Below are positions 9,184-20,458 of a stretch of DNA of 64,000 bases, piece after piece. The notes below the pieces were generated by a model. That model was not told the origin of the DNA. It ran no database searches and saw only the letters and a program-made list of their open reading frames with translations. This DNA is from Acidobacteriota bacterium (GTDB lineage Bacteria > Acidobacteriota > Thermoanaerobaculia > UBA5066 > Gp7-AA6), in NCBI GenBank assembly GCA_039933215.1, contig JBDTOO010000018.1, forward strand, positions 305 to 64,304. The letters are read 5' to 3'. A program made the position numbers and the translations under genes. Position 1 is the stretch's first letter. Every line of letters starts with the position of its first letter.

Positions 9184-9272
9184 AATTTTTCGGCTCCTTT
9201 CCGGAAGCCCGTCCTGCGGGAATGTCCCGATGGACGCGCCCGTTCGACGTTCCGAACCGACAAGGAGCGCCG

Positions 9273-10383: not shown

Positions 10384-10554
10384 TCAGTGGGTGATCGTCG
10401 CTTCCTTCAGGTGAGTACCGGTCGCGCACGTCTGAATCAGCACGGGGCGGGCCTTGCCCCCCTTCACGCTGCGAGCCTGCCTGGCCGACAGCGTCTTGGG
10501 TTTGAGAGCTCCGGCACCCGCGCGTTTCTTCCCTTTGGCCGTTTTCTTGTTCAT
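10384..10554 (-). CDS. GG-leader precursor peptide P1 (56 aa)
   Basis: MNKKTAKGKKRAGAGALKPKTLSARQARSVKGG|KARPVLIQTCATGTHLKEATITH. AGGAGG lies 5 nt upstream of ATG 10554. The leader is shared with P2-P6. The track shows it only as the tail of the artefactual 277-aa ORF 10384..11217. Confidence 0.8.
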   Translation of the reverse strand: MNKKTAKGKKRAGAGALKPKTLSARQARSVKGGKARPVLIQTCATGTHLKEATITH

Positions 10555-10616
10555 GCCGCCTCCTGCGCTTGTGATTGTTCCGCCGCGATCAGCGCGACGG
10601 TCGGCCGCCCTTCCGT

Positions 10617-10793
10617 TCAAGGCTTGATGTCGTACTTGAAATGGATCCCGGCGTCCAGACTCCCGTCGGTTTTCCCGGGCTTGTATTGGAGCGACGTTTC
10701 CCCCCCTTTGACGTTCCGGGCCTGCTTCGCGCTCAGCGTCTTCGCGCCGAGACTCCGAACCGATTTTTTCGCCTTCGCAGGTTTCTTCTTCAT
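10617..10793 (-). CDS. GG-leader precursor peptide P2 (58 aa)
   Basis: Hand translation: MKKKPAKAKKSVRSLGAKTLSAKQARNVKGG|ETSLQYKPGKTDGSLDAGIHFKYDIKP. GAGGAG lies 6 nt upstream of ATG 10793. Not in the ORF track (below 60 aa). Confidence 0.8.
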   Translation of the reverse strand: MKKKPAKAKKSVRSLGAKTLSAKQARNVKGGETSLQYKPGKTDGSLDAGIHFKYDIKP

Positions 10794-10818
10794 GTCTGGC
10801 TCCTCTGTCGAATTGGAA

Positions 10819-10834
10819 AGCAGCCCGGATGCCA
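10819..10834 (-). promoter_or_regulatory. Sigma-54 (-24/-12) promoter upstream of P2
   Basis: The minus strand reads TGGCAT-CCGGG-CTGCT with GG-N10-GC spacing (consensus TGGCAC-N5-TTGCW). It sits about 25 nt upstream of the P2 ATG. Confidence 0.65.
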
Positions 10835-10979
10835 GTCACCCCACGCGTTGAAGAGGCCTTCCGGGGCGGCTTTGCCCGCGGAGGCCGCGGCGGGTGGCCG
10901 GGGATGGATCGAACGTGAGACACGGATGGTGTCGATATGGGGCCGTCTAAGAACCACACCCCCCCTGCCATTTCTTTCA

Positions 10980-11159
10980 TCAGGTGATCAGTATGTCGTT
11001 CATCTTGACGATGAGGTACTCGTGCTGCTCCTTCCCGGCCTTGCGGCCCCCTTTGACATCCCGGGCGTTTCTGGCGCTCAGCGTTTTCGCGGGCAGATCC
11101 TTGACCCTCTTGTTCGCCTTCCCCTTCGCCTTCGCCTTTCCCGTTTTCTGCTTGTTCAT
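10980..11159 (-). CDS. GG-leader precursor peptide P3 (59 aa)
   Basis: Hand translation: MNKQKTGKAKAKGKANKRVKDLPAKTLSARNARDVKGG|RKAGKEQHEYLIVKMNDILIT. AGGAGG lies 5 nt upstream of ATG 11159. Not in the ORF track. Confidence 0.8.
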   Translation of the reverse strand: MNKQKTGKAKAKGKANKRVKDLPAKTLSARNARDVKGGRKAGKEQHEYLIVKMNDILIT

Positions 11160-11182
11160 CCTGCCTCCTGGTCCGCTTTGGA

Positions 11183-11198
11183 AGCAGACCCGGTGCCA
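11183..11198 (-). promoter_or_regulatory. Sigma-54 (-24/-12) promoter upstream of P3
   Basis: The minus strand reads TGGCAC-CGGGT-CTGCT with correct GG-N10-GC spacing, about 23 nt upstream of the P3 ATG. Confidence 0.7.
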
Positions 11199-11299
11199 CC
11201 CGCTCGGATTCCCTCACCAGGGCCGTTCGCGCCGTTATCTCGCGATTCCGCCGCGAGCGGGCTTCCGGCGTTGGACCGATTCTGAGACAATGGTCGGCG

Positions 11300-11305
11300 T
11301 ATAAT
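11300..11305 (+). promoter_or_regulatory. Candidate sigma-70 -10 box (TATAAT) upstream of the exporter operon
   Basis: A perfect TATAAT lies 28 nt upstream of TTG 11334. No convincing -35 at 17-nt spacing (TTGGAC lies 23 nt away). Confidence 0.3.
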
Positions 11306-11333
11306 CGGTCACTTCTCGGTCGCCACCCACGCT

Positions 11334-12401
11334 TTGGATGCGATGAAATCTCTTCTCGACCTTCCCGCGTTCGCCGTCGGCGAAGAAACGTACAGTTGGC
11401 AGGACGTCGTCCTGGCAGCGATGGTCCGCGGGGACTGGGCGGCTCTGGAAGTGCAGACCCGGGAAGGACTTGCGCTCGCGCACTGGGCAGAGAATGCCGG
11501 CGAAAGGCCGTCCGACGAGGACCTGGACGCCGTGGCGCAGGAGTTCCGCTACGAGCGGGACCTGATAGCCGCCGAGGAAATGGAAGTCTGGCTCGCTCGC
11601 TTCGGGCTCACCGTCGATGATTGGATGGGGGCCATCGAGCGCGCCATGCTTCGGTCGGCGCATCCCGAGGAGGTGGGCGACGCTCTCGCGCGATTCTCCG
11701 TCGACGAATCCGAGGTCTCGCGGAGCGCGCCGGCGGACGCCGTCTGTTCCGGCGCTCTCCCGCGGTTCGCGATGGCTCTCGCCGCCCGCGCCGCGATCGC
11801 CAACCGGTCCGGCGCCGAACCGCCGCGCGCCTTCGAGGAAGGGCGAAGCGCGGAACGGACCGGGCGGATGAGCTCCATCGATGCCGCGTTCGCGCGGCTC
11901 GGCTTCCCGCCCGCGAACGATGGGCGCGTCGCCGCTCTCGCCCGGCTCGAGGAGGGGTTCGAGGAGTTCTCCCGCCGTCTCGCGGACCCGTCGGCGATTC
12001 GAGGGCAGATCGAGGCGCATCGGCTCGACTGGATCCTGCTCGACTGGCGGGCGTTGGTCTTCTCCGAGGAGGCGGCCGCGCGCGAAGCCGCTCTCTGCCT
12101 GCGCGAAGACGGCGAGTCCCTCGAAGCCGTGGCGGAGGACGCCCATCTCTCCATCGTCGAGACACGCGCCTACCTCGGCGACGTCGACGCGAGCGCGCGG
12201 CCCGAACTGCTGAGCGCCCGCCCCGGCGATTTCGTTGGACCGCTCCGGATCGAGGACGTTTTCCACGTGCTTCAATTGCGCGGCAAGACCATGCCGTCCG
12301 AGGAGGATCCGGAAGTCCGCAACCGAGCGGAGACGAGCCTGAGGTCGAAGGTCACGGATCAAGAGGTCGCCGCGCGGGTCCGGTGGCACGATCCGGTCTA
12401 G
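11334..12401 (+). CDS. Hypothetical protein with a degenerate parvulin (PpiC)-like C-terminal region; candidate peptide-maturation or chaperone factor
   Basis: 355-aa ORF with good coding character, first gene of the exporter operon. C-terminal ...LLSARPGDFVGPLRIEDVFHVLQLRG... resembles the parvulin G-x-(V/I)-S-x-P-V-x-T-x-x-G-(Y/F)-H-(I/V) segment. Start is TTG 11334 or ATG 11343. Confidence 0.75.
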   Translation: MDAMKSLLDLPAFAVGEETYSWQDVVLAAMVRGDWAALEVQTREGLALAHWAENAGERPSDEDLDAVAQEFRYERDLIAAEEMEVWLARFGLTVDDWMGAIERAMLRSAHPEEVGDALARFSVDESEVSRSAPADAVCSGALPRFAMALAARAAIANRSGAEPPRAFEEGRSAERTGRMSSIDAAFARLGFPPANDGRVAALARLEEGFEEFSRRLADPSAIRGQIEAHRLDWILLDWRALVFSEEAAAREAALCLREDGESLEAVAEDAHLSIVETRAYLGDVDASARPELLSARPGDFVGPLRIEDVFHVLQLRGKTMPSEEDPEVRNRAETSLRSKVTDQEVAARVRWHDPV

Positions 12402-12732
12402 CAGGCGGCTGACAAAAGGATGCGAGCTTTCGGCCGGGGGCATGTGCTGAGAGAGTCGAAAGTGGAGGGCTGAAATTGGGAGGTCTTCTCGAGAGTTCTC
12501 GGCTGCCGGTCGTATCGCGACCGCCGCAGCCGAAAGCCGGGCGGGGCCGTCTGCGGCTTCGCCGCTCCTCCCCGAAGCGAAGGGGCATCGCCGTTCGTCG
12601 CGGATCCTTACATCCGACACCGCGGCGCTCGCCTCCCGCCCACCGAAGGCAGGCCCCCGGCAGTCGGGTACGCCGGCTACCGCCGGCGTTGACCCGCCCC
12701 ACACCGTTCTTCGGCAGCCTGATAGGGAAATC

Positions 12733-15700
12733 ATGAACGAGCGGGAGCTTCTCGACGAACTGCCGATCCTGCGGCTGCTGCCGGCAGAGGCGCGCTCTCT
12801 CGTCGTGGGCAGCTTCATCCCGGTGTCGTTTGCTTTCGGAGACACGATCGTCCGGGAGGGCGATCCGGCCGACGCCTTCTACGTGCTGGCCGCCGGCCGG
12901 GCGCGGATCGTCAAAAAGGGCGACGGCGGGGGAGAGATCCCGTTGAACAGCCTGCGTGCCGGCGACAGCTTCGGGGAGATGGGCCTGCTCGACCATTCGA
13001 CCCGGACCGCGTCGGTCCGCGCGTCGAGCGACGTTCGCGCCTGGCGCCTGGACAAGTCCGTCTTCCAGGCGCTGATCGCACAGAGCCCCGAGATCCGCCA
13101 GTACTTCGAGCTGCAGGTCCGCCACCGCCAGCTTTCGAATTTCTTCCGGGACTTCACGCCGTTCACGCGGCTTCCGCCGCCGGGCATGGCCCTGCTTCTC
13201 GGCAATCTCGAGAGCGTTCCGTTCGAGCCCGGCTCGGTCGTCGTGCGGCAGGGAGCCGAGCCCGGACCGATGTACTTCGTCGAATCCGGGCATCTTCGCG
13301 TCTTCACCGAGGACCCGGAGGGGCGACGGACGTACGTCGCCTACCTGCGCAAGGGGGACTTCTTCGGCGAGCTCTCCGTCTTCCGGGGATCCCGCCGTAC
13401 GGCGTCCGTGGAGGCGGTATCTGCCTGCCGGCTGCTCGCCCTGCACGCGGAGACTCTGCGCACGCTTCTCGATCGCTTCCCGGAGTTCCGATCTCAGATC
13501 GAGGAGCGCATCGCGCAGTACGACTACAAGGAGGCCGCGCGGGTCCCTCTCGACTTCGCCGAAGAGATCCTGCCCGCCGAGGCGTCGGCGCAGGAACAGG
13601 TCGGGTCGGACCAGGTCGAGCAAGGGGAAGAGGAAACGCGGGATCGCGCCGGGGAGCCCGGTGGGGCGTTCGAAGAGGAGGGACTCTTCGTCAAGAAGCC
13701 CGGACGCATCCGGCGCTTTCCGTTCGTCCGCCAGATCGACGAAGTGGACTGTGGGGCCGCCGCGCTCGCGATGGTATGCCGGCATTTCGGGCGAGCCGTG
13801 AGCCTCGCGCGCATCCGGCAACTCGTGCATACCTCGCTCGACGGCACGAGCCTGCGGGGAATCTGCGGCGCGGCCACGGAGCTCGGGCTCGCCGCGCGGT
13901 CCGTCAAGGCTTCCTCGCGGAATCTGGACGAGATGCCGCTTCCCGCGATCCTGCATTGGGAAGGGAACCACTGGGTGGTCCTTTACGACGTGACGGAGAC
14001 CCACTGCCGCGTCGCGGATTCCGCGATCGGGCTGCGGCGGTTCTCCCGCGCCGAATTCGAGAAGCGGTGGACGGGCTACGCCGCGCTGTTCGACTACACG
14101 AGCGAATTCGAGAACGCTCCCGTCGCCGTCTCGAACCTGGCCTGGCTGCGCCCCTTCTTCCGGCCCTTTACGAAGATCCTGCTCCAGGCCCTCGGCCTCT
14201 CGATCGTCGTCGCGGCTCTGCAGATGGTCCTGCCTGTCTTCACGCAGGTGATCGTCGACCGGGTGCTCGTGGAAAGGGACGTGTCGCTTCTGAACCTCCT
14301 CATGCTCGGCATGGGCGTCGTCATCGTCTTCCTGGTGCTGTCACTCGCCGTGCAGCGTTATCTGCTCAGCTTCGTGGCGGTGCGCGTCGACGCTTCAACG
14401 CTCGACTACCTGACGCGCAAGATGCTGGGCCTCCCCATGAGCTACTTCACGACCCGGCGCACCGGCGACATCCAGCGGCGTCTCGAAGGGATTCGCCAGG
14501 TCCGGGAGTTCCTCGTCCAGAGCGGCGTGGCCGGGGTCACCGCCGCGACGCAGCTCGCGGCGAGCCTCCTCCTGATGCTTCTCTACAGCCGGACTCTCAC
14601 CCTGGTGTTCCTCGCGACGGCTCCCGTCTACGGGTTGCTGATGTTCTATTCGTCGCGATGGCTCCGGCCGATCTTCGACGTCGTCGAGGATTCCTTCGGC
14701 AAGTACCACTCGTACCAGATCGATGCGATCAAGGGGATCGAGACCGTCAAGGCCATGGGCGCCGAGGGTTCATTCCGCAATCTGATGCTCGGGCAGTTCC
14801 TGAGCGTCGCCCGCCGCCTCTTCCGCGCGGACTTCACCGTGATGGGATACCGAGGCGCGGTCCAGACGGTCACTCTGCTGACGACGGCGCTCTTTCTCGG
14901 TATCGGAGCGCGTCAGGTGATGGGCGGGGCGCTCACGATCGGCGGTCTGGTGGCCTTCAACGCGCTGGTGGCTCTCGCGAACGCCCCGATCCTGACCCTG
15001 CTGACGATCTGGGACAACTGGCAACACTCCGCCGTTCTCCTGAACCGCTTGAACGACGTCTTCGAGCAGGAGCCCGAGCAAGGGGCCGACCGCTCCCGCC
15101 TCGTACCGGTGCGGAGCCTGGAGGGACGGATCGAGCTCCACGACCTCGGCTTCTCATACGGGCCGGAGGCCCCCGAGATCCTGAAGGGCATCACGTTCGA
15201 CGTCGAGCCGGGCAAGCGGGTGGCGATCGTCGGCCGCAGCGGCTCGGGTAAGACGACGCTCGTGAAGTGCCTGGCGGGTCTGCTCGAGCCGACGGAAGGC
15301 GCGATTCGCTACGACGGCGTGGATCTCAAGACTCTCAACTATCGCGACCTCAGGCGCCAGGTCGGATTCGTTCTGCAGGACAACTTTCTCTTTTCCGACA
15401 CGATCGCCCGCAACATCGCCTTTGGCGAGGACGAGCCGGACATGGACCGCGTGCTCTGGGCTTCCCGCGTGGCGAACGCGCACGAGTTCGTCGAGCGGCT
15501 TCCCCTCGGGTACGACACGAAAGTGGGTGAGAGCGGGATCGCCGTATCCGGCGGGCAGAAGCAGCGGATCGCGATCGCCCGGTCCGTCTACGCCAAACCG
15601 CCGGTGTTGATTTTCGACGAGGCGACGAGCTCGCTCGACACCGAATCGGAGCGCGCGGTGCAGGAGAATCTCGCCCAGTTGCTGAAGGGAAGGACGTCCT

Positions 15701-15858
15701 TCGTGATCGCGCACCGGTTGAGCACGATCGTCGACTCGGACTGGATCCTCGTCCTGGAGAAGGGGCGCCTCGTCGAGCAGGGCACCCACGAGCAGCTCCT
15801 CGACCGCCGCGGCCTCTACTATTACCTCTCGAGCCAGCAGATCGGCCTCTCCACATGA
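12733..15858 (+). CDS. Peptidase-C39 ABC exporter (PCAT) with two N-terminal cyclic-nucleotide-binding domains
   Basis: Two CAP_ED-like domains (..FGDTIVREGDPADAFYVLAAGRARIV..GDSFGEMGLL..RTASVRA.. and ..PGSVVVRQGAEPGPMYFVESGHLRV..GDFFGELSVF..RTASVEA..). C39 domain with catalytic Cys (QIDEVDCGAAALAMV) and His (WEGNHWVVLYDV). Six-TM ABC domain. Walker A GRSGSGKTT, signature VSGGQKQR, Walker B VLIFDEATS. Confidence 0.93.
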   Translation: MNERELLDELPILRLLPAEARSLVVGSFIPVSFAFGDTIVREGDPADAFYVLAAGRARIVKKGDGGGEIPLNSLRAGDSFGEMGLLDHSTRTASVRASSDVRAWRLDKSVFQALIAQSPEIRQYFELQVRHRQLSNFFRDFTPFTRLPPPGMALLLGNLESVPFEPGSVVVRQGAEPGPMYFVESGHLRVFTEDPEGRRTYVAYLRKGDFFGELSVFRGSRRTASVEAVSACRLLALHAETLRTLLDRFPEFRSQIEERIAQYDYKEAARVPLDFAEEILPAEASAQEQVGSDQVEQGEEETRDRAGEPGGAFEEEGLFVKKPGRIRRFPFVRQIDEVDCGAAALAMVCRHFGRAVSLARIRQLVHTSLDGTSLRGICGAATELGLAARSVKASSRNLDEMPLPAILHWEGNHWVVLYDVTETHCRVADSAIGLRRFSRAEFEKRWTGYAALFDYTSEFENAPVAVSNLAWLRPFFRPFTKILLQALGLSIVVAALQMVLPVFTQVIVDRVLVERDVSLLNLLMLGMGVVIVFLVLSLAVQRYLLSFVAVRVDASTLDYLTRKMLGLPMSYFTTRRTGDIQRRLEGIRQVREFLVQSGVAGVTAATQLAASLLLMLLYSRTLTLVFLATAPVYGLLMFYSSRWLRPIFDVVEDSFGKYHSYQIDAIKGIETVKAMGAEGSFRNLMLGQFLSVARRLFRADFTVMGYRGAVQTVTLLTTALFLGIGARQVMGGALTIGGLVAFNALVALANAPILTLLTIWDNWQHSAVLLNRLNDVFEQEPEQGADRSRLVPVRSLEGRIELHDLGFSYGPEAPEILKGITFDVEPGKRVAIVGRSGSGKTTLVKCLAGLLEPTEGAIRYDGVDLKTLNYRDLRRQVGFVLQDNFLFSDTIARNIAFGEDEPDMDRVLWASRVANAHEFVERLPLGYDTKVGESGIAVSGGQKQRIAIARSVYAKPPVLIFDEATSSLDTESERAVQENLAQLLKGRTSFVIAHRLSTIVDSDWILVLEKGRLVEQGTHEQLLDRRGLYYYLSSQQIGLST

Positions 15859-17084
15859 ACGATTCCTCACCCGCCGCGGCGCCCGGCGAGGCCCCTTACC
15901 TGGACGTCGAACCGCCGGCATGGGCCGCGCGGTCGCTCGCGACGGTCCTGATCTCGCTGTTCGCGGTCCTCGCGATCGCCGCTCTGGCGGTCCACGTGCC
16001 GGAGACCATATCGGCTCAGTTCGTGATCGTGCCCGTCCGGGGCACCGACCCGGTGCGCGCGTTCCGGGACGGTATCGTCACCGAGGCGCGCGTTCGCGAC
16101 ACGCAGACCGTCCGGGCGGGAGAGACGCTGTTCGTCATCACCTCACCGGCCATCGGCGATCGTGCGGCGGAGTCGGCGGGTCTGCAGGCGCAGCTCGCCG
16201 GCGCCGGAGAGCGATCCGGCAACGTGCGGACCCGGTACGAGAACGAGCAGCGGGCGCGAGACGAAGAAGAGTCGCGCCTCCGGATCCGCCTCGCGAGCCT
16301 CGAGAAGACGATCCAGATGAACACGCAGCAGCTCTCGATCGCGGCGGAGCTGGCGGAGCGGCAGAAAAAGGCGTTCGACGAGGGGATCTCGAGCTGGTCG
16401 GATCTCGCCCGCGTCCGGCTGGAAATCAATCGGCTGCAGATCGAGGCGCAGCAGGCGCAGGCGGAACGGGACGAGATCCGGCGTGCGGTCGCGAAGTCGG
16501 CCCACGAGAATCTCGCCCGCCAGTCGGAGTTCCGCGAATCCGAGCGCTCCGCGGCGGAGGATCTCGGAAAGGCCCGCGTTCGCACGACCATGCTCGAGAA
16601 AGAGCTCGCACAGACGGGCAATCAGCTCACGGCGGCCGCTCCCTGCGCCGGCAGCGTGGTGAAGACCAACATCCGCGGCGTCGGCGCGGTGGTCCGCGAG
16701 GGCGACGTCCTCGCGGAAGTCGCCTGCCGGGGGGAAAGGCTCGAGGCGGAGCTCACCATTCCGCAGGACGGGATGGCGCTCCTGCGGCCGGGCCAGGACG
16801 TCAAGCTCCTCTACGACGCGTTCCCTTATCAGCGCTACGGCGTGCGGCTCGCGAGGGTTCGCTGGGTGAGCCCGGCCGGGACGGGCGAGCCCGGAAAGGC
16901 GTCCTTCCGGGCGCTCGCCGACCTGAAGGAAACCGACGTGCCGGTCCGGGGTCAGAGGAGGCCGGTCGAGTCCGGGATGGGCGGCCGGGCGCGCATCATC
17001 GTGGGCCGGCGGTCTCTCGTGTCCTACGTCTTCGAGCCGTTGCGCCAGTTGAAAGAGAGCCTGGCTCCGGTGCCCTCGAAATGA
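15855..17084 (+). CDS. HlyD-family periplasmic adaptor (membrane fusion protein)
   Basis: The start overlaps the exporter stop (ATGA). One N-terminal TM helix, a long coiled-coil (..LRIRLASLEKTIQMNTQQLSIAAELAERQKKAFDEG..EINRLQIEAQQAQAERDEI..) and a C-terminal beta-barrel segment. Confidence 0.9.
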   Translation: MNDSSPAAAPGEAPYLDVEPPAWAARSLATVLISLFAVLAIAALAVHVPETISAQFVIVPVRGTDPVRAFRDGIVTEARVRDTQTVRAGETLFVITSPAIGDRAAESAGLQAQLAGAGERSGNVRTRYENEQRARDEEESRLRIRLASLEKTIQMNTQQLSIAAELAERQKKAFDEGISSWSDLARVRLEINRLQIEAQQAQAERDEIRRAVAKSAHENLARQSEFRESERSAAEDLGKARVRTTMLEKELAQTGNQLTAAAPCAGSVVKTNIRGVGAVVREGDVLAEVACRGERLEAELTIPQDGMALLRPGQDVKLLYDAFPYQRYGVRLARVRWVSPAGTGEPGKASFRALADLKETDVPVRGQRRPVESGMGGRARIIVGRRSLVSYVFEPLRQLKESLAPVPSK

Positions 17085-17103
17085 GCCGCCGGGCGGAGGG
17101 CCG

Positions 17104-18093
17104 ATGACGCGCTCTCAGGACGCTTTGTCCCTGACCCTCGACGACTACCACGGCCGCGATCCCGCGATGCAGCGGTGCCTCGAGCAGGCGCGGCTCGCCG
17201 CGCGGACCGATCTTCCGATCCTGATCCTCGGAGAATCCGGGACCGGAAAGACCCTGCTCGCGCGCGCCGTCCACAACTCGTCTCCCCGGCGGGACGGGCC
17301 GTTCGTTTCCTTCAACGCCGCGGCCCTTTCGGACACCCTTCTCGATTCTCAGCTCTTCGGTCACGAGCGAGGCGCCTTCACCGGCGCGCAGAATCGCGTC
17401 AAGGGGAAGTTCGAGCTGGCGAACTCCGGTTCGCTCTTCATCGACGAGATCGCCGACATGAGCGCCTCGGGCCAGGGCAAGATCCTTCGCGCCGTCGAGT
17501 ACGGCGAGTTCGAGCGGCTGGGCTCGGAAACGATCCAGGTGTCCGACGTCCGCCTGCTGTCGGCGACGCACTTTCCGATGGGAGTGTTCACGGAGTCCGA
17601 GCGATTCCGGCGGGACCTGTTCTTCCGGATCAGCGGTTGGACGATCACGCTTCCGCCCCTGCGGGAGCGGCGAAAGGACCTCCCGCTGCTGCTCGCGTCC
17701 GAGATCGCGCGCGCGAGCCGGGAGCAGAAAAAGCCGATCGTGGGACTCGAGCGGGATGCCGTCGACCGCGTCCTCGCTCACGCCTGGCCGGGTAACCTGA
17801 GGGAGCTCTCCCGCGTGGTGGACGTGGCGGTCGCGTCGTGCGAGGCCGGAGTCGTGACCGCGGACGCGCTCTACCTCCAGTCCTTCCCCGACCCGGACGG
17901 TCGCCCCGCGTCTCCCGTCTCCCCGGCGTCAACCGGCGCGGAGACCCTCAGCCTCGCGGCGGCCGAACGCCGCCACATCGGAAGCGTGCTCGCCCGGCTG
18001 GCAGGAAACAAGCGGGCGGCCGCGAAAGCGCTCGGAATCTCCCGGTCGACGCTCGACCGCAAGTTAAACGACGCCGCGAAGGACGCCCGGTAA
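17104..18093 (+). CDS. Sigma-54-dependent transcriptional activator (AAA+ enhancer-binding protein plus Fis-type HTH) lacking an N-terminal sensory domain
   Basis: Walker A ILGESGTGKTLLA, the sigma-54 contact loop FGHERGAFTGA, Walker B LFIDEIADM, WPGNLRELSRVV, and C-terminal HTH NKRAAAKALGISRSTLDRKL. The AAA+ domain begins within about 25 residues of the N-terminus. Confidence 0.9.
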   Translation: MTRSQDALSLTLDDYHGRDPAMQRCLEQARLAARTDLPILILGESGTGKTLLARAVHNSSPRRDGPFVSFNAAALSDTLLDSQLFGHERGAFTGAQNRVKGKFELANSGSLFIDEIADMSASGQGKILRAVEYGEFERLGSETIQVSDVRLLSATHFPMGVFTESERFRRDLFFRISGWTITLPPLRERRKDLPLLLASEIARASREQKKPIVGLERDAVDRVLAHAWPGNLRELSRVVDVAVASCEAGVVTADALYLQSFPDPDGRPASPVSPASTGAETLSLAAAERRHIGSVLARLAGNKRAAAKALGISRSTLDRKLNDAAKDAR

Positions 18094-18100
18094 CCGCCGG

Positions 18101-18283
18101 TCAGTAACCGCGACGCTTCGAATCGAGCGACTCTCCCTTGATGTCCCCGAGCTTCGCGAAGACGTCGACGGCGCCGCCTTTCACCCGCTTCGCCTGATCG
18201 GCCTTCAGCCGCTTCGCAGGCAGGTTCGAAACGCTCTTCTTCGCGGCTTTGCCGCTCTTGCTGGATCCACGCCTGGTCGCCAT
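18101..18283 (-). CDS. GG-leader precursor peptide P4 (60 aa)
   Basis: MATRRGSSKSGKAAKKSVSNLPAKRLKADQAKRVKGG|AVDVFAKLGDIKGESLDSKRRGY. GAGGAGAGGAAA lies upstream of ATG 18283. The track ORF 18101..18310 starts 9 codons earlier at a less likely ATG. Confidence 0.8.
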   Translation of the reverse strand: MATRRGSSKSGKAAKKSVSNLPAKRLKADQAKRVKGGAVDVFAKLGDIKGESLDSKRRGY

Positions 18284-18339
18284 ACGATTTCCTCTCCTCT
18301 TTCTCTCCATCGGAGCTTTGTCGCGAGCTTCGACGGTCG

Positions 18340-18510
18340 TCAGATGTCCATCGTGTCCGGATGCTTCGGGTCGAGCGATTCTCCCTTGATGTTCCCGATC
18401 CTGCCGCCTTTGATCCGTTTCGCCTGATCCCCCTTCAACGACTTCGGGGGAAGGCTCTTCGCCCGCTTGCCCGGCGAACCGGCCGCCTTCCTTCCTCGAT
18501 CGCTCGGCAT
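18340..18510 (-). CDS. GG-leader precursor peptide P5 (56 aa)
   Basis: MPSDRGRKAAGSPGKRAKSLPPKSLKGDQAKRIKGG|RIGNIKGESLDPKHPDTMDI. GGAG lies 6 nt upstream of ATG 18510. In the track it is only the tail of the artefactual ORF 18340..18804. Confidence 0.78.
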   Translation of the reverse strand: MPSDRGRKAAGSPGKRAKSLPPKSLKGDQAKRIKGGRIGNIKGESLDPKHPDTMDI

Positions 18511-18537
18511 GGATGCTCCATTGGATGGAACTCGGGT

Positions 18538-18553
18538 AGCAAGTCTGCAGCCA
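18538..18553 (-). promoter_or_regulatory. Sigma-54 (-24/-12) promoter upstream of P5-P4
   Basis: The minus strand reads TGGCTG-CAGAC-TTGCT with GG-N10-GC spacing and a perfect TTGC -12 element, about 27 nt upstream of the P5 ATG. Confidence 0.7.
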
Positions 18554-18635
18554 GATCGATTCGGGGGGGCGAGAACCCTCGTGGGGGCCCGGTGTGCCGG
18601 GCGATTCGTGCGAAAAAGCCCGCCACCGGTGCGCT

Positions 18636-18652
18636 CCGCCGCGGAGGCGGCG
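18636..18652. promoter_or_regulatory. Candidate shared enhancer (UAS) palindrome between the divergent sigma-54 promoters
   Basis: CGCCGC-GGAG-GCGGCG is a 6-4-6 inverted repeat almost exactly midway between the -24 elements at 18553 and 18728. A related CCGCGG-AGG-CCGCGG lies at 10876..10890 upstream of the P2 promoter. GC palindromes are frequent in this genome, so support is weak. Confidence 0.25.
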
Positions 18653-18726
18653 AGAGGCCGCCCGGGGGCCAGGAGAGGGGACCCCGAAGGCTCATGTCTC
18701 AGAATGGAACACGCGAGGTCCCGGAA

Positions 18727-18742
18727 CGGTACCGTGCCTGCG
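18727..18742 (+). promoter_or_regulatory. Candidate sigma-54 promoter upstream of P7-P6
   Basis: CGGTAC-CGTGC-CTGCG has correct GG-N10-GC spacing, with one mismatch in each element relative to GGCAC/TTGC. Confidence 0.45.
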
Positions 18743-18821
18743 CCGAAGGCTCTCCGGGGCCGCGCGAAGTCTCTCCGCTCGCGCGAGTTGCGCGAACGCC
18801 TCATCTGGCGGAGAAACTGCT

Positions 18822-19052
18822 ATGGCAGGAAGAAAATGGAAGCGAAGATGGCTCGAGCCGAGACTCGAAAGGCGTGAAACCGAAGTGAAGCGGATCCGCC
18901 GGCGGACCCGCGAGGTCGTCCTCCTGAAGGACCTGGCTCCCCGTCAGGAGATCAAGGGAGGAAGCGGAAAGCGGCTCTTCGGCGAGCGCATCGCTTCGAC
19001 GGAGTCGGAGGCGAAGGCCAGGAGGGTTTCTCGAAAGACGAAGCCCTCCTAG
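18822..19052 (+). CDS. Divergent GG-motif precursor peptide P7 (76 aa from ATG 18822, or 55 aa from GTG 18885)
   Basis: ...(V/M)KRIRRRTREVVLLKDLAPRQEIKGG|SGKRLFGERIASTESEAKARRVSRKTKPS. It has a basic N-terminus and a KDL(P)A..IKGG motif like P3-P5, but the leader is shorter. GGAGAA lies upstream of ATG 18822. It is the C-terminal part of track ORF 18594..19052. Confidence 0.5.
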   Translation: MAGRKWKRRWLEPRLERRETEVKRIRRRTREVVLLKDLAPRQEIKGGSGKRLFGERIASTESEAKARRVSRKTKPS

Positions 19053-19097
19053 TTCGACGAGCAGAGTGGATCGCAACGGAGCGAAAGGAGAGGGACG

Positions 19098-19265
19098 ATG
19101 GCAACCAGGAAGAGTCGGAAGCCCGCGAAGAAGGTCAAGTCGATGAAGGCGAAGAGCCTGAATGCGAAGCAGGCCAGGAGCGTCAAGGGCGGCAAAACGA
19201 CGCTTCAGGACATCAGCTTCGTTCACAGTGTCGATAAGGCGAGCCCGGTCCTCCTTCAGAAATAA
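19098..19265 (+). CDS. GG-leader precursor peptide P6 (55 aa)
   Basis: Hand translation: MATRKSRKPAKKVKSMKAKSLNAKQARSVKGG|KTTLQDISFVHSVDKASPVLLQK. AAGGAG lies 7 nt upstream of ATG 19098. Not in the ORF track. Confidence 0.8.
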   Translation: MATRKSRKPAKKVKSMKAKSLNAKQARSVKGGKTTLQDISFVHSVDKASPVLLQK

Positions 19266-19285: not shown

Positions 19286-20458
19286 TCAGCGTTCGCCGGG
19301 CCTGGAGTCCGCCAGGATGTGGAAGTCCGCCAGTTTTCGGACCAGGTCCTCTTCCACGCGGATTCCCAGCTCGCTTTCGATCGTCTCGAGAGCCTCCCGC
19401 GTGGGCTGCCCCTGGAAATAGGGCAGCACCTGCAGGATCTCCGGCGGGAGATCGAGGGCATCGGCGCCGGTGTAACCGACGATGCGAACGGCCTCCGGAC
19501 TCGCCGAGAGGATCTGGAACGTGCCGGGAGTGAGCCGTTCCGGGAGCTTTTCCGAGAGCAACTCCGCGTGCGCCTGCCGCGTCATGCGCGCCTGCACCGC
19601 GATGTCGGCGCCGCCGATGCGCGCCACGTCCTCCCACGCGAGCGGTCCGACGCGGCGGCCGCACTCCCGATAGAACTCCCGCTCCCGTCCGAGCCACTGT
19701 CCCCAGACCTTCCGCGCGGACGCGGGATCGGGCCGGCCGTCGACGTCCGCGGCGCTCATCGGCAGCTTCGTCCCGGGACGCGGCTTCGGCGGGAAGACGG
19801 ACTCCAGGGCGGCGGCGTCGAGGCCGGACTCGAGAACGCACCAGGTCGAAAGCGCCCACTCGACTTCCTTCAGGAGGTCTCGCAGGCGGTCCCAGAAAGC
19901 CATGCCGACGGCTCCCCGCTCGTACTTGCAGAACCAGGTGGCGCAGATGGCGTTGCGATGCTTCCAGATGCCGCACCGGCCTCCCGCCTCCTCGAGGTAG
20001 TGCGGACACCGCAGCGTCTCGGCGCGCCCGAAGGCCGCGGGCCCTCCGGCGTCGTAGAGCACGCTGAAGCGGGCCGGCGCCTGGACCCCGAGCGGATGGA
20101 CGCCGACTCCCTCGTCCAGGCGTCGCTCGAGCGTCGCCCGGCCCGCGGAGAAGGCGAAGTCGCCGTCCTCGAGGGCGCGGCCCACGAGAAAATTGGGCAC
20201 GGTCGGCACGTAGGTGCAGCACTTGGTCCGCGGGCTGAAGTAATTGCCTTCGTCGGGAGGTGCGCCCGGGGGCGCGCACATCGCGCAGTCGTCGCAGGTC
20301 GCGCGGGTCTCGGCGGGGATCGGACCACGCAGCAGGGCGTCGATCCAGCGGGCGTAGAGGGGAGGCAGGGAGCTGCTCGGATCGAAGGGCTGCACCGTCC
20401 CCCGAGGATAGAGCCGGCGGAGCGGGGCCGCCAGCGGTAAACCTCCGGACGGATACAT
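19286..20458 (-). CDS. Cysteine-cluster protein (YkgJ/CxxCxxCC-like) with a possible C-terminal PqqD/RRE-like peptide-binding region
   Basis: Cys motifs CDDCAMC...KCCTYVP...CPHYLEEAGGRCGIWKHRNAICATWFC. The C-terminal segment LPPEILQVLPYFQGQPTREALETIESELGIRVEEDLVRKLADFHILA resembles PqqD-type RiPP recognition elements. It is convergent with P6. Confidence 0.8.
   Translation of the reverse strand: MYPSGGLPLAAPLRRLYPRGTVQPFDPSSSLPPLYARWIDALLRGPIPAETRATCDDCAMCAPPGAPPDEGNYFSPRTKCCTYVPTVPNFLVGRALEDGDFAFSAGRATLERRLDEGVGVHPLGVQAPARFSVLYDAGGPAAFGRAETLRCPHYLEEAGGRCGIWKHRNAICATWFCKYERGAVGMAFWDRLRDLLKEVEWALSTWCVLESGLDAAALESVFPPKPRPGTKLPMSAADVDGRPDPASARKVWGQWLGREREFYRECGRRVGPLAWEDVARIGGADIAVQARMTRQAHAELLSEKLPERLTPGTFQILSASPEAVRIVGYTGADALDLPPEILQVLPYFQGQPTREALETIESELGIRVEEDLVRKLADFHILADSRPGER

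What the first reader, a model, noticed from the sequence alone, without database searches (positions are those of the whole stretch)
10384..19265. Predicted mature cores tile the type VI secretion tube protein Hcp from N- to C-terminus
The cores after the GG site are:
- P4 AVDVFAKLGDIKGESLDSKRRGY
- P5 RIGNIKGESLDPKHPDTMDI
- P6 KTTLQDISFVHSVDKASPVLLQK
- P1 KARPVLIQTCATGTHLKEATITH
- P3 RKAGKEQHEYLIVKMNDILIT
- P7 SGKRLFGERIASTESEAKARRVSRKTKPS
- P2 ETSLQYKPGKTDGSLDAGIHFKYDIKP

I compared them with P. aeruginosa Hcp1 as I recall it from memory (this must be verified): MAVDMFIKIGDVKGESKDKTHAEEIDV...GKVNVQDLSFTKYIDKSTPNLMMACSSGKHYPQAKLTIRKAGGENQVEYLIITLKEVLVSSVSTGGSGGEDRLTENVTLNFAQVQVDYQPQKADGAKDGGPVKYGWNIRQN.

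The cores align collinearly with it:
- P4 matches AVDMFIKIGDVKGESKD at 12 of its first 17 positions, and starts exactly at Hcp residue 2.
- P5 matches KIGDVKGESKDKTHAEEIDV.
- P6 matches (K)VNVQDLSFTKYIDKSTPNLMMA.
- P1 matches KSTPNLMMACSSGKHYPQAKLTI, overlapping P6 in KA(S/R)PVL(L/I)Q.
- P3 matches RKAGGENQVEYLIITLKEVLVS.
- P7 weakly matches GGSGGEDRLTENVTL.
- P2 matches ENVTL...YQPQKADGAKDGGPVKYGWNIRQ, with the NFAQVQVD strand deleted.

Each Hcp beta-strand segment is therefore a separate gene. Each has its own RBS, a polybasic N-terminus and an export/cleavage leader. The genes sit on both strands and in two clusters, so this is not a simply frameshifted hcp. No tssB, tssC, vgrG or other T6SS gene lies in the window.

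Possible interpretations, all inference:
- secreted Hcp-mimetic peptides that interfere with Hcp ring or tube assembly
- peptides that complement or seed an Hcp-like assembly outside the cell
- an hcp gene shredded and recruited into a peptide-export pathway
Basis: partly seen in the sequence, partly recalled or inferred. Interest (0 to 1): 0.96.

Follow-up and report, generated by a model that had tools for sequence, protein, structure and literature searches.

The report
Exported peptides copied from Hcp tube protein
A soil bacterium (probably an acidobacterium) encodes six small peptides, each a copied segment of the type VI secretion tube protein Hcp behind a cleavable export leader, next to a dedicated exporter; this conserved, unannotated family may be natural mimics of a bacterial weapon's building block.

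Summary
Six of the seven small genes (P4, P5, P6, P1, P3, P2) encode a conserved polybasic double-glycine leader followed by a 20-27 aa core. Each core matches an Hcp1-lineage profile over its whole length (17.6-37.4 bits; 500 shuffles stay below 6). They map collinearly to Hcp residues 2-22, 8-26, 50-71, 64-86, 87-107 and 131-154. P7 is not Hcp-like, but it is a real, conserved second type of GG peptide.

The genes are under purifying selection (dN/dS 0.20) and have sigma-54 promoter motifs. They flank an operon for a SurA/PrsA-like chaperone, a PCAT exporter (cNMP domains, catalytically intact C39 peptidase), HlyD and a sigma-54 activator.

The leader family has at least 404 clusters in metagenomes. 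Hcp is by far its commonest cargo, with fixed segment boundaries, and the core consensus equals the Hcp consensus at 102 of 120 positions. No T6SS gene lies nearby, no source names these peptides, and I found no paper describing them.

The best reading is a regulated, exported cocktail of Hcp-mimicking peptides. Their target is unproven; interference with T6SS tube assembly is my leading guess.

The parts
10384..10554 (-). P1 precursor (56 aa): leader ...ARQARSVKGG, core KARPVLIQTCATGTHLKEATITH = Hcp 64-86 (class C)
   Evidence: ORF and SD GGAGG. Core scores 32.1 bits against the Hcp lineage profile, 0/500 shuffles. Leader profile E 4.5e-9.
10617..10793 (-). P2 precursor (58 aa): core ETSLQYKPGKTDGSLDAGIHFKYDIKP = Hcp about 131-154 (class E)
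   Evidence: 37.4 bits, 0/500 shuffles. Identical gene found in 4 independent assemblies.
10819..10834 (-). Sigma-54 type -24/-12 promoter motif TGGCATccgggcTGCT, 41 nt upstream of the P2 start
   Evidence: One of only 2 exact consensus matches in 64 kb, where 0.03 are expected. Position relative to the gene.
10980..11159 (-). P3 precursor (59 aa): core RKAGKEQHEYLIVKMNDILIT = Hcp 87-107 (class D)
   Evidence: 31.7 bits, 0/500 shuffles.
11183..11198 (-). Sigma-54 type -24/-12 promoter motif TGGCACcgggtcTGCT, 39 nt upstream of the P3 start
11334..12401 (+). Accessory protein with SurA/PrsA-like architecture (helical chaperone module plus parvulin-like domain); no obvious signal peptide; distant relative of TIGR04500
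   Evidence: AF2 pLDDT 94.3. Foldseek top hits are SurA, PrsA and PEB4, E down to 1e-5. Weak Rotamase_2 hits. The L001 orthologue hits TIGR04500 at E 5e-9, below the cutoff. It is syntenic with the exporter in L001, L014 and L050.
12733..15858 (+). PCAT exporter: two cNMP-binding domains, C39 peptidase, ABC membrane domain and ABC ATPase (1041 aa)
   Evidence: Pfam. Catalytic Cys and His aligned to PCAT1 4RY2. Best NCBIfam hit is TIGR03796, below its cutoff.
15855..17084 (+). HlyD-family membrane fusion protein
17104..18093 (+). Sigma-54 enhancer-binding protein with only the AAA+ domain (GAFTGA present) and a Fis-type HTH; no sensory or receiver domain
18101..18283 (-). P4 precursor (60 aa from the second ATG): core AVDVFAKLGDIKGESLDSKRRGY = Hcp 2-22 (class A), starting at the native mature N-terminus of Hcp
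   Evidence: 25.7 bits, 0/500 shuffles. The 60-aa form is the one in the public collection (P0006). SD GAGGAG lies before the second ATG.
18340..18510 (-). P5 precursor (56 aa): core RIGNIKGESLDPKHPDTMDI = Hcp 8-26 (class A'); tandem paralogue of P4
   Evidence: 17.6 bits, 0/500 shuffles. The P4/P5 overlap is 88% identical at the nucleotide level.
18538..18553 (-). Sigma-54-like motif TGGCTGcagactTGCT, 43 nt upstream of P5 (P5-P4 operon)
18806..18821 (+). Sigma-54-like motif TGGCGGagaaacTGCT upstream of the P7-P6 pair
18885..19052 (+). P7 (55 aa from the GTG): a second, conserved type of GG peptide, leader ...VVLLKDLAPRQEIKGG and core SGKRLFGER...; NOT Hcp-derived
   Evidence: Homologues next to the sigma-54 activator in L050 and L051. 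GC3 is 0.84. No Hcp signal. Does not fit the main leader profile.
19098..19265 (+). P6 precursor (55 aa): core KTTLQDISFVHSVDKASPVLLQK = Hcp 50-71 (class B)
   Evidence: 26.3 bits, 0/500 shuffles. Pfam T6SS_HCP 22.7 bits on its own.
19286..20458 (-). Conserved Cys-rich protein (390 aa) with a faint CxxCxxCC/YkgJ-like metal-binding signal; loosely associated with these systems
   Evidence: Adjacent in the window, L001, L002 and L050. Linked to a PCAT in only some of the 39 genome loci. PF03692 E 0.027-0.44.

Best explanation
The locus is a sigma-54-controlled production and export system for a cocktail of short linear peptides copied from the T6SS tube protein Hcp.

Proposed sequence of events:
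1. The sensor-less sigma-54 activator drives the peptide operons P3, P2-P1, P5-P4 and P7-P6.
2. Each precursor carries a strongly basic N-terminus (+9 to +12) and a double-glycine leader.
3. A cytoplasmic SurA/PrsA-like chaperone probably keeps the beta-strand-prone precursors soluble and hands them to the exporter.
4. The PCAT's C39 domain cuts after GG, possibly gated by a nucleotide ligand on its two cNMP domains.
5. With HlyD, the PCAT exports cores of 2.2-3.0 kDa.

The mature peptides reproduce defined Hcp segments: the native N-terminus with strand 1, the GDIKGES loop, strand 3, the helix with strand 4, strand 5, and the C-terminal strand with the native C-terminus.

I think the selected property is mimicry of Hcp. 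The peptides would bind Hcp, or an Hcp partner, by occupying the place of the corresponding strand, and so interfere with ring or tube assembly or with Hcp recognition in T6SS-armed cells. Competitors are the more likely target; the producer itself is possible.

Shown: gene anatomy, homology to Hcp, conservation, selection, promoter motifs, catalytic residues, chaperone fold.
Inferred: cleavage and export, absence of modification, mimicry as the selected function, and the target.
For: Homology to Hcp:
- Six cores match an Hcp1-lineage profile at 17.6-37.4 bits with no shuffle close.
- The concatenation scores 61.9 bits against Pfam T6SS_HCP.

Conservation:
- 63 of 71 close family cores match Hcp at 10 bits or more, in six classes with fixed boundaries.
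- The core consensus equals the Hcp consensus at 102 of 120 covered positions. Cores average 75% identity to it, against 87% for real Hcp proteins.
- This holds although overlapping paralogues have diverged from each other and the leader DNA copies are old.
- Short unfolded peptides would be expected to drift unless likeness to Hcp is itself selected.

Selection and expression:
- dN/dS is 0.15 for leaders, 0.31 for cores and 0.20 pooled.
- The only two exact sigma-54 consensus sites in 64 kb precede P2 and P3.
- Similar motifs sit 39-53 nt upstream of the first peptide gene of arrays in the window, L002, L004 and L006.
- No sigma-70-like promoter was found in the locus.

Export machinery:
- PCAT domains, with catalytic Cys and His intact.
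- HlyD.
- GG invariant, with conserved hydrophobic or small residues at -4, -7 and -12.
- SurA/PrsA-like accessory protein.

Family breadth:
- At least 404 clusters at 50% identity.
- Hcp is the dominant cargo: 25 of 141 diverse representatives hit PF05638 on their own, and the next families have at most 2 members.

Context and properties:
- No hcp or T6SS gene lies within 10 kb of any of the loci examined, so these are not T6SS cluster components.
- Cores are hydrophilic and near neutral, unlike membrane-active bacteriocins.
Against: - No experiment or tool result shows export, cleavage, binding to Hcp or any effect on T6SS.
- An extracellular peptide would have to reach the cytoplasm of a T6SS-armed cell to poison tube assembly, and no uptake route is evident.
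- I could not determine whether the producers themselves carry a T6SS or an Hcp of this lineage.
- Sister systems with the same operon carry cores with no detectable Hcp signal (L050; most cores in L004 and L006). Hcp mimicry therefore cannot be the function of the whole leader family.
- Short linear peptides usually bind folded proteins weakly.
- The class B core evolves almost neutrally between the window and L002 (dN/dS 0.86).
- Possible modification by the Cys-rich protein is not excluded.
Confidence: 0.4

Rival explanations
1. Signalling peptides. The cores are pheromone-like signals (quorum or developmental cues) exported by a nucleotide-gated PCAT, as proposed for HetC. The likeness to Hcp is only a historical source of sequence, or the peptides report or imitate 'T6SS activity nearby' to a sensor.
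For: - The leaders weakly resemble the EntF-type double-glycine induction-factor model (P2 at E 0.027; 20 of 141 members at E <= 0.5).
- The exporter has the HetC architecture. HetC is thought to export a signalling peptide and binds ppGpp (PMC10986499).
- P7-type peptides are conserved beside the sigma-54 activator even where Hcp cores are absent.
- In V. cholerae hcp operons are themselves RpoN/VasH dependent (PMC3439928).
Against: - No histidine kinase or receptor is encoded in the conserved module.
- Arrays of 5-13 different cores per locus are unusual for a signal.
- A pure signal has no reason to keep 85% consensus identity to Hcp.
Confidence: 0.2
2. Internal regulator of the producer's own T6SS. 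The precursors or cores bind the cell's own Hcp and hold tube assembly in check. Ligand-gated export through the PCAT removes them and licenses firing.
For: - Peptides and Hcp would meet in the same cytoplasm, so no uptake problem arises.
- The cNMP domains on the exporter suggest gating.
- A cytoplasmic chaperone is encoded alongside.
- Sigma-54 control is shared with hcp genes in other bacteria (PMC3439928).
Against: - No T6SS gene lies in the 64 kb window or within 10 kb of any related locus.
- Presence of a T6SS in the producers is unknown.
- Exporting an inhibitor is a costly way to regulate.
- Sister systems lack Hcp-like cores.
Confidence: 0.12
3. Extracellular self-assembling beta-strand peptides. 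These would be matrix or functional-amyloid-like material, or a split Hcp rebuilt outside the cell. Hcp strands were co-opted because they pair readily.
For: - Cores are strand segments of a beta-barrel protein.
- A SurA-like holdase suggests aggregation-prone clients.
- Many paralogues are made together.
Against: - Two Hcp segments, including strand 2 and the long hairpin loop, are never supplied, and fragments overlap. A complete Hcp therefore cannot be rebuilt.
- Cores are hydrophilic (GRAVY -0.05 to -0.97).
- Amyloid function would not need fidelity to the Hcp sequence.
Confidence: 0.1
4. Ordinary antibacterial double-glycine peptides (microcin-like toxins) that kill by a mechanism unrelated to Hcp.
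For: - GG leader, PCAT and HlyD are the class II microcin/bacteriocin export module.
- Multi-peptide loci are common for bacteriocins.
- Class II microcins are now known to be widespread and diverse (PMC12219008, listed).
Against: - Mature cores are 2.2-3.0 kDa, hydrophilic and near neutral.
- I saw no small membrane immunity gene in the conserved module, although I did not test for one rigorously.
- Close tracking of the Hcp consensus is unexplained by this reading.
Confidence: 0.1
5. Non-functional debris: a decayed hcp, mis-assembly or gene-calling artefact.
For: Only that the pieces are short and, in some metagenome annotations, were called 'Hcp'.
Against: - Genes lie on both strands in two clusters, each with an SD sequence and an in-frame conserved leader.
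- dN/dS is 0.20 with dS about 0.9.
- An identical array is found in four independent assemblies.
- The same classes occur in many loci and metagenomes.
Confidence: 0.01

Closest known systems
Double-glycine leader peptides exported by peptidase-containing ABC transporters (class II bacteriocins and microcins, ComC/EntF-type pheromones; PCAT1, ComA)
   Same: - GG cleavage motif with conserved residues at -4, -7 and -12.
- Adjacent ABC transporter with a catalytically intact C39 domain.
- HlyD partner.
- Several precursor genes per locus.
   Different: - The leader is longer (31-38 aa) and has a strongly polybasic N-terminal half.
- Cores are only 20-27 aa, hydrophilic, and are copies of segments of a known structural protein.
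- No immunity gene is evident.
- Sigma-54 control.
- An extra SurA-like chaperone is encoded alongside.
HetC of Nostoc PCC 7120 (PCAT with an N-terminal cyclic-nucleotide-binding domain; PMC10986499)
   Same: The same unusual exporter architecture: cNMP-binding domain(s), C39 peptidase and ABC exporter in a diderm bacterium.
   Different: - HetC has no known substrate and no adjacent fusion protein or GG-peptide genes.
- Here the substrates are encoded alongside and HlyD is present.
- The ligand here is unknown (HetC binds ppGpp in vitro).
Hcp1 / TssD, the T6SS tube protein (P. aeruginosa PA0085, PDB 1Y12; Pfam PF05638)
   Same: The cores are homologous, segment by segment and in order, to a very conserved Hcp1-type lineage of about 159 aa. 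That lineage's closest solved relative is 1Y12 (E 5e-40).
   Different: - No gene encodes a foldable Hcp domain.
- Each piece is fused to an export leader for a different secretion route.
- There is no T6SS context.
- Two Hcp segments are never used.
TIGR04500 'PpiC-related putative peptide maturation system protein', and SurA/PrsA chaperones
   Same: - The accessory protein has the SurA/PrsA architecture.
- One orthologue hits TIGR04500 weakly.
- It sits next to a peptide exporter.
   Different: - Scores are far below the family cutoff (35.8 bits against 180).
- There is no signal peptide, so it is probably cytoplasmic, unlike SurA and PrsA.
- Function is untested.
microProteins: small dominant-negative proteins that evolved from a domain of their target (a concept from plant biology; cited from my own knowledge)
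   Same: The idea that a short copy of part of an oligomerising protein interferes with that protein's assembly.
   Different: - Those act inside the producing cell and are not exported.
- No bacterial example built from a secretion-system subunit is known to me.

Membership tests
Double-glycine leader peptide / PCAT export systems | Gly-Gly (or Gly-Ala/Ser) at -2/-1, with conserved hydrophobic or small residues at -4, -7 and -12 of the leader | tested here: met
   GG is invariant. V/I at -4, A at -7 and L at -12 are conserved in the six precursors and across the family.
Double-glycine leader peptide / PCAT export systems | Neighbouring ABC transporter with an N-terminal C39 peptidase carrying the catalytic Cys and His | tested here: met
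   PF03412 at 126 bits. Cys in ...DEVDCGAAAL... and His in ...GNHWVVL... align to the catalytic residues of PCAT1 4RY2.
Double-glycine leader peptide / PCAT export systems | Membrane fusion (HlyD-family) partner in diderm bacteria | tested here: met
   HlyD_3 and TIGR01843 hits on the overlapping downstream gene.
Double-glycine leader peptide / PCAT export systems | Leader actually cleaved and core exported | not testable with these tools
   Needs expression and mass spectrometry.
Double-glycine leader peptide / PCAT export systems | Match to a curated GG-leader model | tested here: inconclusive
   Only weak hits to NF033383 (EntF induction factor): P2 at E 0.027, and 20 of 141 members at E <= 0.5 with the best at 0.0069.
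Hcp / TssD (PF05638, TIGR03344) | Sequence homology to the Hcp domain | tested here: met
Hcp / TssD (PF05638, TIGR03344) | A complete Hcp domain (about 130-160 aa) in one polypeptide, able to form the ring | tested here: not met
   Each gene carries 20-27 residues of Hcp. No single precursor reaches the Pfam cutoff (best is P6 at 22.7 against 23.5). TIGR03344 gives 28-30 bits against a cutoff of 58.9 even for the concatenation.
Hcp / TssD (PF05638, TIGR03344) | Encoded with, or used by, T6SS core genes | tested here: not met
   No T6SS family among the window's large ORFs. No hcp within 10 kb of the related loci. The whole genome was not testable.
Class II microcins | Mature toxin of several kDa (typically about 5-10 kDa) with a dedicated immunity gene next to it | tested here: not met
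   Cores are 2.2-3.0 kDa. No small membrane protein gene is conserved in the module; this last point was by inspection only.
NHLP/Nif11 bacteriocin systems (TIGR03796/03797/03794) | Exporter and HlyD above the family cutoffs, and an NHLP or Nif11 type leader | tested here: not met
   TIGR03796 at 530.6 bits against a cutoff of 853. TIGR03794 at 42 bits against 156. No NHLP or Nif11 hit on any precursor.
HetC-type cNMP-domain PCAT | Cyclic-nucleotide-binding domain(s) N-terminal to the C39 domain of an ABC exporter | tested here: met
   PF00027 at 161 bits in two stretches, ahead of C39. The same architecture is seen in L001, L050, L051 and L052.
TIGR04500 PpiC-related peptide maturation protein | Score above the family cutoff (180 bits) | tested here: not met
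   The window protein gives no hit. The L001 orthologue scores 35.8 bits, E 5e-9. The fold is SurA/PrsA-like.
Sigma-54 regulon | -24 GG / -12 GC promoter elements with correct spacing, and a cognate enhancer-binding protein with GAFTGA | tested here: met
   Motifs. Sigma54_activat at 196 bits plus HTH_8. GAFTGA is visible in the translation. Actual dependence on RpoN was not testable.

The most novel reading that the evidence does not exclude
Bacteria make and export panels of short peptides that copy segments of the polymerising subunits of other cells' contractile or filamentous machines. The main source is the T6SS tube protein Hcp. In sister systems the source may be tail-tube proteins of contractile injection systems and prepilin-like proteins. 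The peptides act as dominant-negative 'subunit mimics' that jam assembly. This would be a previously unrecognised, peptide-based countermeasure against T6SS and related weapons, and a natural source of T6SS inhibitors.
Probability: 0.25. Interest if true: 0.95.

Novelty: new variant of a known kind. Interest (0 to 1): 0.85.

Why it matters
No natural inhibitor or mimic of the T6SS tube is known. Known defences against T6SS attack are immunity proteins, envelope stress responses and physical barriers.

What would be new:
- A conserved, widespread family (at least 404 sequence clusters) of exported peptides that reproduce Hcp segments. This would be a new principle in interbacterial conflict, or in T6SS regulation.
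- Ready-made peptide leads against a virulence and competition machine. The parent lineage is the P. aeruginosa Hcp1 type.

What becomes testable:
- Which Hcp surfaces are vulnerable.
- What cNMP-domain PCATs such as HetC export.

Even if the function proves to be signalling or matrix formation, repeated conversion of a structural protein into separately encoded, leader-tagged peptides is an unusual route of gene birth.

It also shows that hundreds of small genes of this kind are unannotated, or mislabelled 'Hcp', in public data.

Tried and rejected
1. P7 as an Hcp fragment: rejected. I first took it for a spurious ORF, because its leader fails the family profile (110 of 500 shuffles score as well). 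I then found conserved homologues in L050 and L051, so it is a real gene of a different GG-peptide type.

3. AlphaFold model of the parent Hcp, to place fragment boundaries on strands: the model was poor (pLDDT 46.5, shallow alignment). Only the C-terminal half agrees with expectations. Statements about N-terminal strands rest on my knowledge of the 1Y12 fold.

4. The Cys-rich 390-aa protein as a specific marker of the system: only partly valid. It is found in 39 MAG loci across many phyla but is linked to a PCAT in only some of them.

5. The idea that non-Hcp cores derive from CIS/phage tail-tube and prepilin-like proteins:
   - Single-sequence PDB searches found nothing.
   - tblastn against phages found nothing useful.
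   - A small profile found only two PDB hits, both CIS tube proteins, but at E 0.45 and 1.4.
   - Pfam gp19 was hit by 2 of 141 members at E 0.034.
   - TIGR02241 was hit by 1 member at E 0.02, and TIGR04294 (HX9DG prepilin-like) by 5 members with the best at 0.008.
   - I report this as suggestive only.

6. L004 and L006 cores as pieces of another Hcp subfamily: only ITKLVDKSS... is clearly Hcp (16.9 and 21.4 bits). RDAASGLPTGKRMHKP adds about 14 bits when I place it in front by hand. The others show no signal.

7. Recent derivation or gene conversion from hcp: not supported. Leader DNA copies are 60-78% identical, overlapping cores differ from each other, and cores are 56-81% identical at the nucleotide level to three real hcp genes.

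8. Literature searches found no description of Hcp-fragment peptides. A search for TIGR04500 failed on a formatting limit.

9. P0275 (1442 aa) in the family search is an unrelated repeat protein, a false positive.

10. A slip: in alignment A4 the minus-strand window references were trimmed at the wrong end, so they lack the initial Met and include the stop codon. Window P3 entered alignment A4 only in this truncated form; its near-identical cluster mate P0002 was left out of A4. This does not affect the profile's leader columns or the conclusions.

Full report
**What is in the window.**

Six of them (P1 10384-10554, P2 10617-10793, P3 10980-11159, P4 18101-18283, P5 18340-18510, all on the minus strand, and P6 19098-19265 on the plus strand) share three features:
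- a Shine-Dalgarno sequence;
- a strongly basic N-terminal stretch, with leader net charge +9 to +12;
- a conserved leader ending K-x-L-x-A-x-Q-A-x-x-[VI]-K-G-G (alignment A1).

The two clusters flank a plus-strand operon:
- a 355-aa protein with no family hit at 11334-12401;
- a 1041-aa ABC exporter with two cyclic-nucleotide-binding domains, a C39 peptidase, a membrane domain and an ATPase at 12733-15858;
- a HlyD-family fusion protein at 15855-17084;
- a sigma-54 enhancer-binding protein at 17104-18093 that consists only of the AAA+ module (GAFTGA present) and a Fis-type HTH.

A conserved Cys-rich 390-aa protein lies at 19286-20458 on the minus strand. The rest of the window is ordinary chromosomal housekeeping with no T6SS component.

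**Is the Hcp resemblance real?** Yes.
- The collinear concatenation of cores hits Pfam T6SS_HCP at 61.9 bits (E 1e-16) over profile positions 1-110 of 129. P6 alone scores 22.7 bits, just under the 23.5 cutoff.
- A homology search with a near-full-length Hcp found a very large, very conserved Hcp lineage of about 159 aa (6488 proteins at E <= 1e-10; the best 120 are 75-87% identical to the query). Its closest solved relative is P. aeruginosa Hcp1, 1Y12 (E 5e-40).
- Against a profile of 109 full-length members, each of six cores matches over its entire length. In every case 0 of 500 shuffles reached the score and the shuffle maximum was below 6 bits.

| Core | Bits | Hcp residues |
|---|---|---|
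| P4 | 25.7 | 2-22 |
| P5 | 17.6 | 8-26 |
| P6 | 26.3 | 50-71 |
| P1 | 32.1 | 64-86 |
| P3 | 31.7 | 87-107 |
| P2 | 37.4 | 131-154 |

- P7 does not match Hcp (346 of 500 shuffles score as well).
- P2 aligns contiguously, so no deletion is needed.
- Hcp segments of about 28-49 and 108-130 are not represented in the window.

**They are genes, not debris.**
- Between the window and a related locus (L002), pooled dN/dS over the five orthologous small genes is 0.20 (leaders 0.15, cores 0.31), at dS about 0.9. The neighbouring 390-aa gene gives 0.13. GC3 is about 0.8, as in real genes of this genome.
- Leader-coding DNA copies within the window are only 60-78% identical, and overlapping cores (P4/P5, P6/P1) differ from each other. 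These are old paralogues, and there is no sign of ongoing conversion from a single hcp.
- The P3-P2-P1 array is identical in four independent assemblies, whose gene callers called all three genes.

**Regulation.**
- The pattern TGGCAY-N6-TGCW occurs exactly twice in 64 kb, where 0.03 matches are expected. The two sites lie 39 and 41 nt upstream of P3 and P2.
- Slightly relaxed -24/-12 motifs lie 43 nt upstream of P5 and upstream of the P7-P6 pair.
- Similar motifs lie 49-53 nt upstream of the first peptide gene in L002, L004 and L006.
- No sigma-70-like promoter was found in the locus.
- Together with the adjacent activator, this points to sigma-54 control. By spacing, the operons are P3, P2-P1, P5-P4 and P7-P6 (inference).

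**Export machinery.**
- The C39 domain aligns to PCAT1 (4RY2) with the catalytic Cys and His in place, so cleavage after GG is expected (inference).
- The exporter's architecture matches HetC of Nostoc. HetC is a cNMP-domain PCAT whose substrate is unknown and which binds ppGpp in vitro (PMC10986499).
- The 355-aa protein has 72 homologues, all 'hypothetical'.
- Its AlphaFold model is confident (pLDDT 94.3) and resembles SurA, PrsA and PEB4: a helical chaperone module plus a parvulin domain (E down to 1e-5, probability 1.0).
- Weak Rotamase_2 hits, and a sub-threshold TIGR04500 hit of an orthologue, agree with this.
- It has no evident signal peptide. I read it as a cytoplasmic holdase for strand-prone precursors (inference).

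**The family elsewhere.** A profile of the six precursors found about 70 short proteins in metagenomes with the same leader. JGI's pipeline had named a few of them 'Hcp'.

Of 71 close family cores, 63 match Hcp at 10 bits or more. They fall into six classes with fixed boundaries:

| Class | Hcp residues | Note |
|---|---|---|
| A | 2-16/22 | often followed by non-Hcp RR |
| A' | 8-27 | |
| B | 50-71 | |
| C | variable start, ends at 86 | |
| D | 87-107 | |
| E | variable start, ends at 154/159 | |

- Class A begins at the native mature N-terminus of Hcp, and class E ends at its native C-terminus.
- One protein, P0020, is a leader fused to the entire C-terminal half of Hcp (residues 87-159, 129 bits).
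- Loci L001, L002 and L003 carry arrays of these classes beside the same accessory genes.
- An exhaustive profile search of 1.84 billion representative proteins gave 404 clusters at E <= 0.001.
- Among 141 new, diverse representatives, 37 cores match the lineage profile at 8 bits or more.
- 25 of the 141 hit Pfam T6SS_HCP on their own, while no other family is hit by more than 2.
- Over 85 unique Hcp-like cores, the core consensus equals the Hcp consensus at 102 of 120 covered positions. Cores average 75% identity to it, against 87% for real Hcp proteins. Positions of about 28-49 and 110-124 are essentially never used.
- No public source names these peptides.
- Taxa identifiable from MAG titles are Acidobacteriota (including Thermoanaerobaculia) and Gemmatimonadaceae. 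The window itself has an acidobacterial-type PadR.

**Limits of the Hcp theme.**
- L050 has the same operon (chaperone, PCAT, HlyD, activator, five small genes, Cys-rich protein), but its cores show no Hcp signal.
- L004 and L006 carry 13 leader-bearing peptides each, of which only one is clearly Hcp-like.
- Some non-Hcp cores contain a ...PGRLKW--ITLKRG... motif. A small profile of them hits only two PDB sequences, both inner-tube proteins of contractile injection systems, but at E 0.45 and 1.4.
- Two members weakly hit Pfam gp19 and one hits TIGR02241.
- Five members weakly hit the H-X9-DG prepilin-like family TIGR04294 (best E 0.008).
- Single-sequence searches gave nothing.
- So other polymerising subunits may also be sources of cargo, but this is only suggestive.

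**P7.** It fails the main leader profile and the Hcp profile. However, clear homologues lie beside the activator in L050 and L051. Their leader is ...[VI][VI]LLxDLAPR[QK][ED][IV][KT]GG and their conserved core starts [SA]GKR[LV]FGE. The alignment supports the GTG start at 18885, and GC3 is 0.84. P7 is therefore a genuine, distinct GG peptide of the system, perhaps its conserved 'own' peptide.

**How it most likely works.**

Shown:
- anatomy and homology;
- purifying selection;
- promoter motifs;
- an intact peptidase;
- the chaperone fold;
- conservation of the module.

Inferred:
- Sigma-54-driven synthesis.
- Chaperoning of the precursors.
- GG cleavage and export of unmodified hydrophilic peptides of 2.2-3.0 kDa.

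The feature that most needs explaining is the fidelity of these short peptides to the Hcp sequence over long divergence. I take this to mean that likeness to Hcp is what selection maintains: the peptides stand in for Hcp strands when binding Hcp or an Hcp partner. Interference with ring or tube assembly in T6SS-armed cells is the most direct consequence.

My confidence by step:
- About 0.85 for 'exported, leader-cleaved Hcp-derived peptides'.
- About 0.55 for 'Hcp mimicry is the selected property'.
- About 0.3 for 'the target is T6SS tube assembly'.

The main obstacles are:
- the lack of an uptake route into a target's cytoplasm;
- my inability to learn whether the producers have a T6SS;
- the existence of sister systems without Hcp cargo.

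The rivals, weighed in the structured fields, are signalling, self-regulation of the producer's own T6SS, extracellular self-assembly, an ordinary microcin-like toxin, and non-functional debris. Debris is refuted.

**Comparison with what is known.**
- The export module passes the tests for the double-glycine/PCAT kind.
- It resembles HetC in architecture.
- It fails the cutoffs for the NHLP and TIGR04500 families.
- The peptides are homologous to Hcp but are not Hcp proteins.
- Four literature searches found no description of such peptides.

I therefore file it as a new variant of a known kind (GG-leader peptide export) with an unprecedented cargo.

Noticed in passing
window 18885-19052 (+); L050:17361-17543; L051:9190-9417: P7 belongs to a separate conserved GG-peptide family (leader ..LLxDLAPRQEIKGG, core GKRLFGE..) encoded beside the sigma-54 activator. 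It is present even in systems that lack Hcp-like cores, and in L051 it is the only small peptide gene I saw.
   Followed up: partly
window 41513-43174 (+): An FHA-GAF-adenylate/guanylate cyclase gene lies about 25 kb from an exporter that carries two cNMP-binding domains. It could be a source of the gating ligand, but no linkage has been shown.
   Followed up: no
window 19176-19196 (P6 leader/core junction): The Hcp profile aligns P6 from inside its leader (Hcp 42-71). The cleavage site ..VKGG|K superimposes on the native Gly-rich loop of Hcp..GGGAG|K. This hints that the natural glycine run of Hcp may have served as the GG site when this class arose.
   Followed up: no
P0020 (metagenome protein, 111 aa): A family leader fused to the whole C-terminal half of Hcp (residues 87-159, 129 bits). 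It may be an evolutionary intermediate between hcp and the short-core genes.
   Followed up: no
Class A cores in many homologues (e.g. L002:5877-6044); window P4 tail ..SKRRGY: Many class A cores end with a non-Hcp 'RR' straight after ..GDIKGES. In L001 every core ends in a basic pair (..IIRR, ..GLKR, ..IRER, ..SLKR, ..FRTR). The purpose is unknown; solubility, uptake or processing are possibilities.
   Followed up: no
L004:9579-18854 and L006:9633-18633: Two acidobacterial MAGs carry arrays of 13 leader-bearing peptide genes each, with very diverse cores. Examples are SFSFG.., ..GWDVKANRKY, RDAASGLPTGKRMHKP and ..MADGSVRP... Only one core is clearly Hcp-like.
   Followed up: partly
L050:16915-18565: A sister system has an identical operon, but its cores resemble (weakly, partly by eye) prepilin-like proteins (LLLPAVQKIRE..) and a CIS tail-tube motif (IPGRLKWQPITLKRG). 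This raises the possibility that the family samples several polymerising subunits.
   Followed up: partly
L012 (CAZOAZ010000122.1): A 5-kb contig binned as 'uncultured Bifidobacterium sp.' encodes the Cys-rich protein followed by a class A Hcp-fragment peptide (..RAIRGG|AIDIFAKIGDIKGESRR). The bin assignment is probably wrong.
   Followed up: no
L043:10001-10480 and L044:10001-10480: Full-length hcp genes of the parent lineage stand alone, with no T6SS genes within 10 kb (orphan hcp). In L045 the same Hcp follows tssC/VipB.
   Followed up: no
window 9222-10289 (+): A TPR plus TlpA/ResA-like thiol-disulfide oxidoreductase gene abuts the P1 cluster. It is not conserved in the related loci, so it is probably unrelated to the system.
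   Followed up: partly
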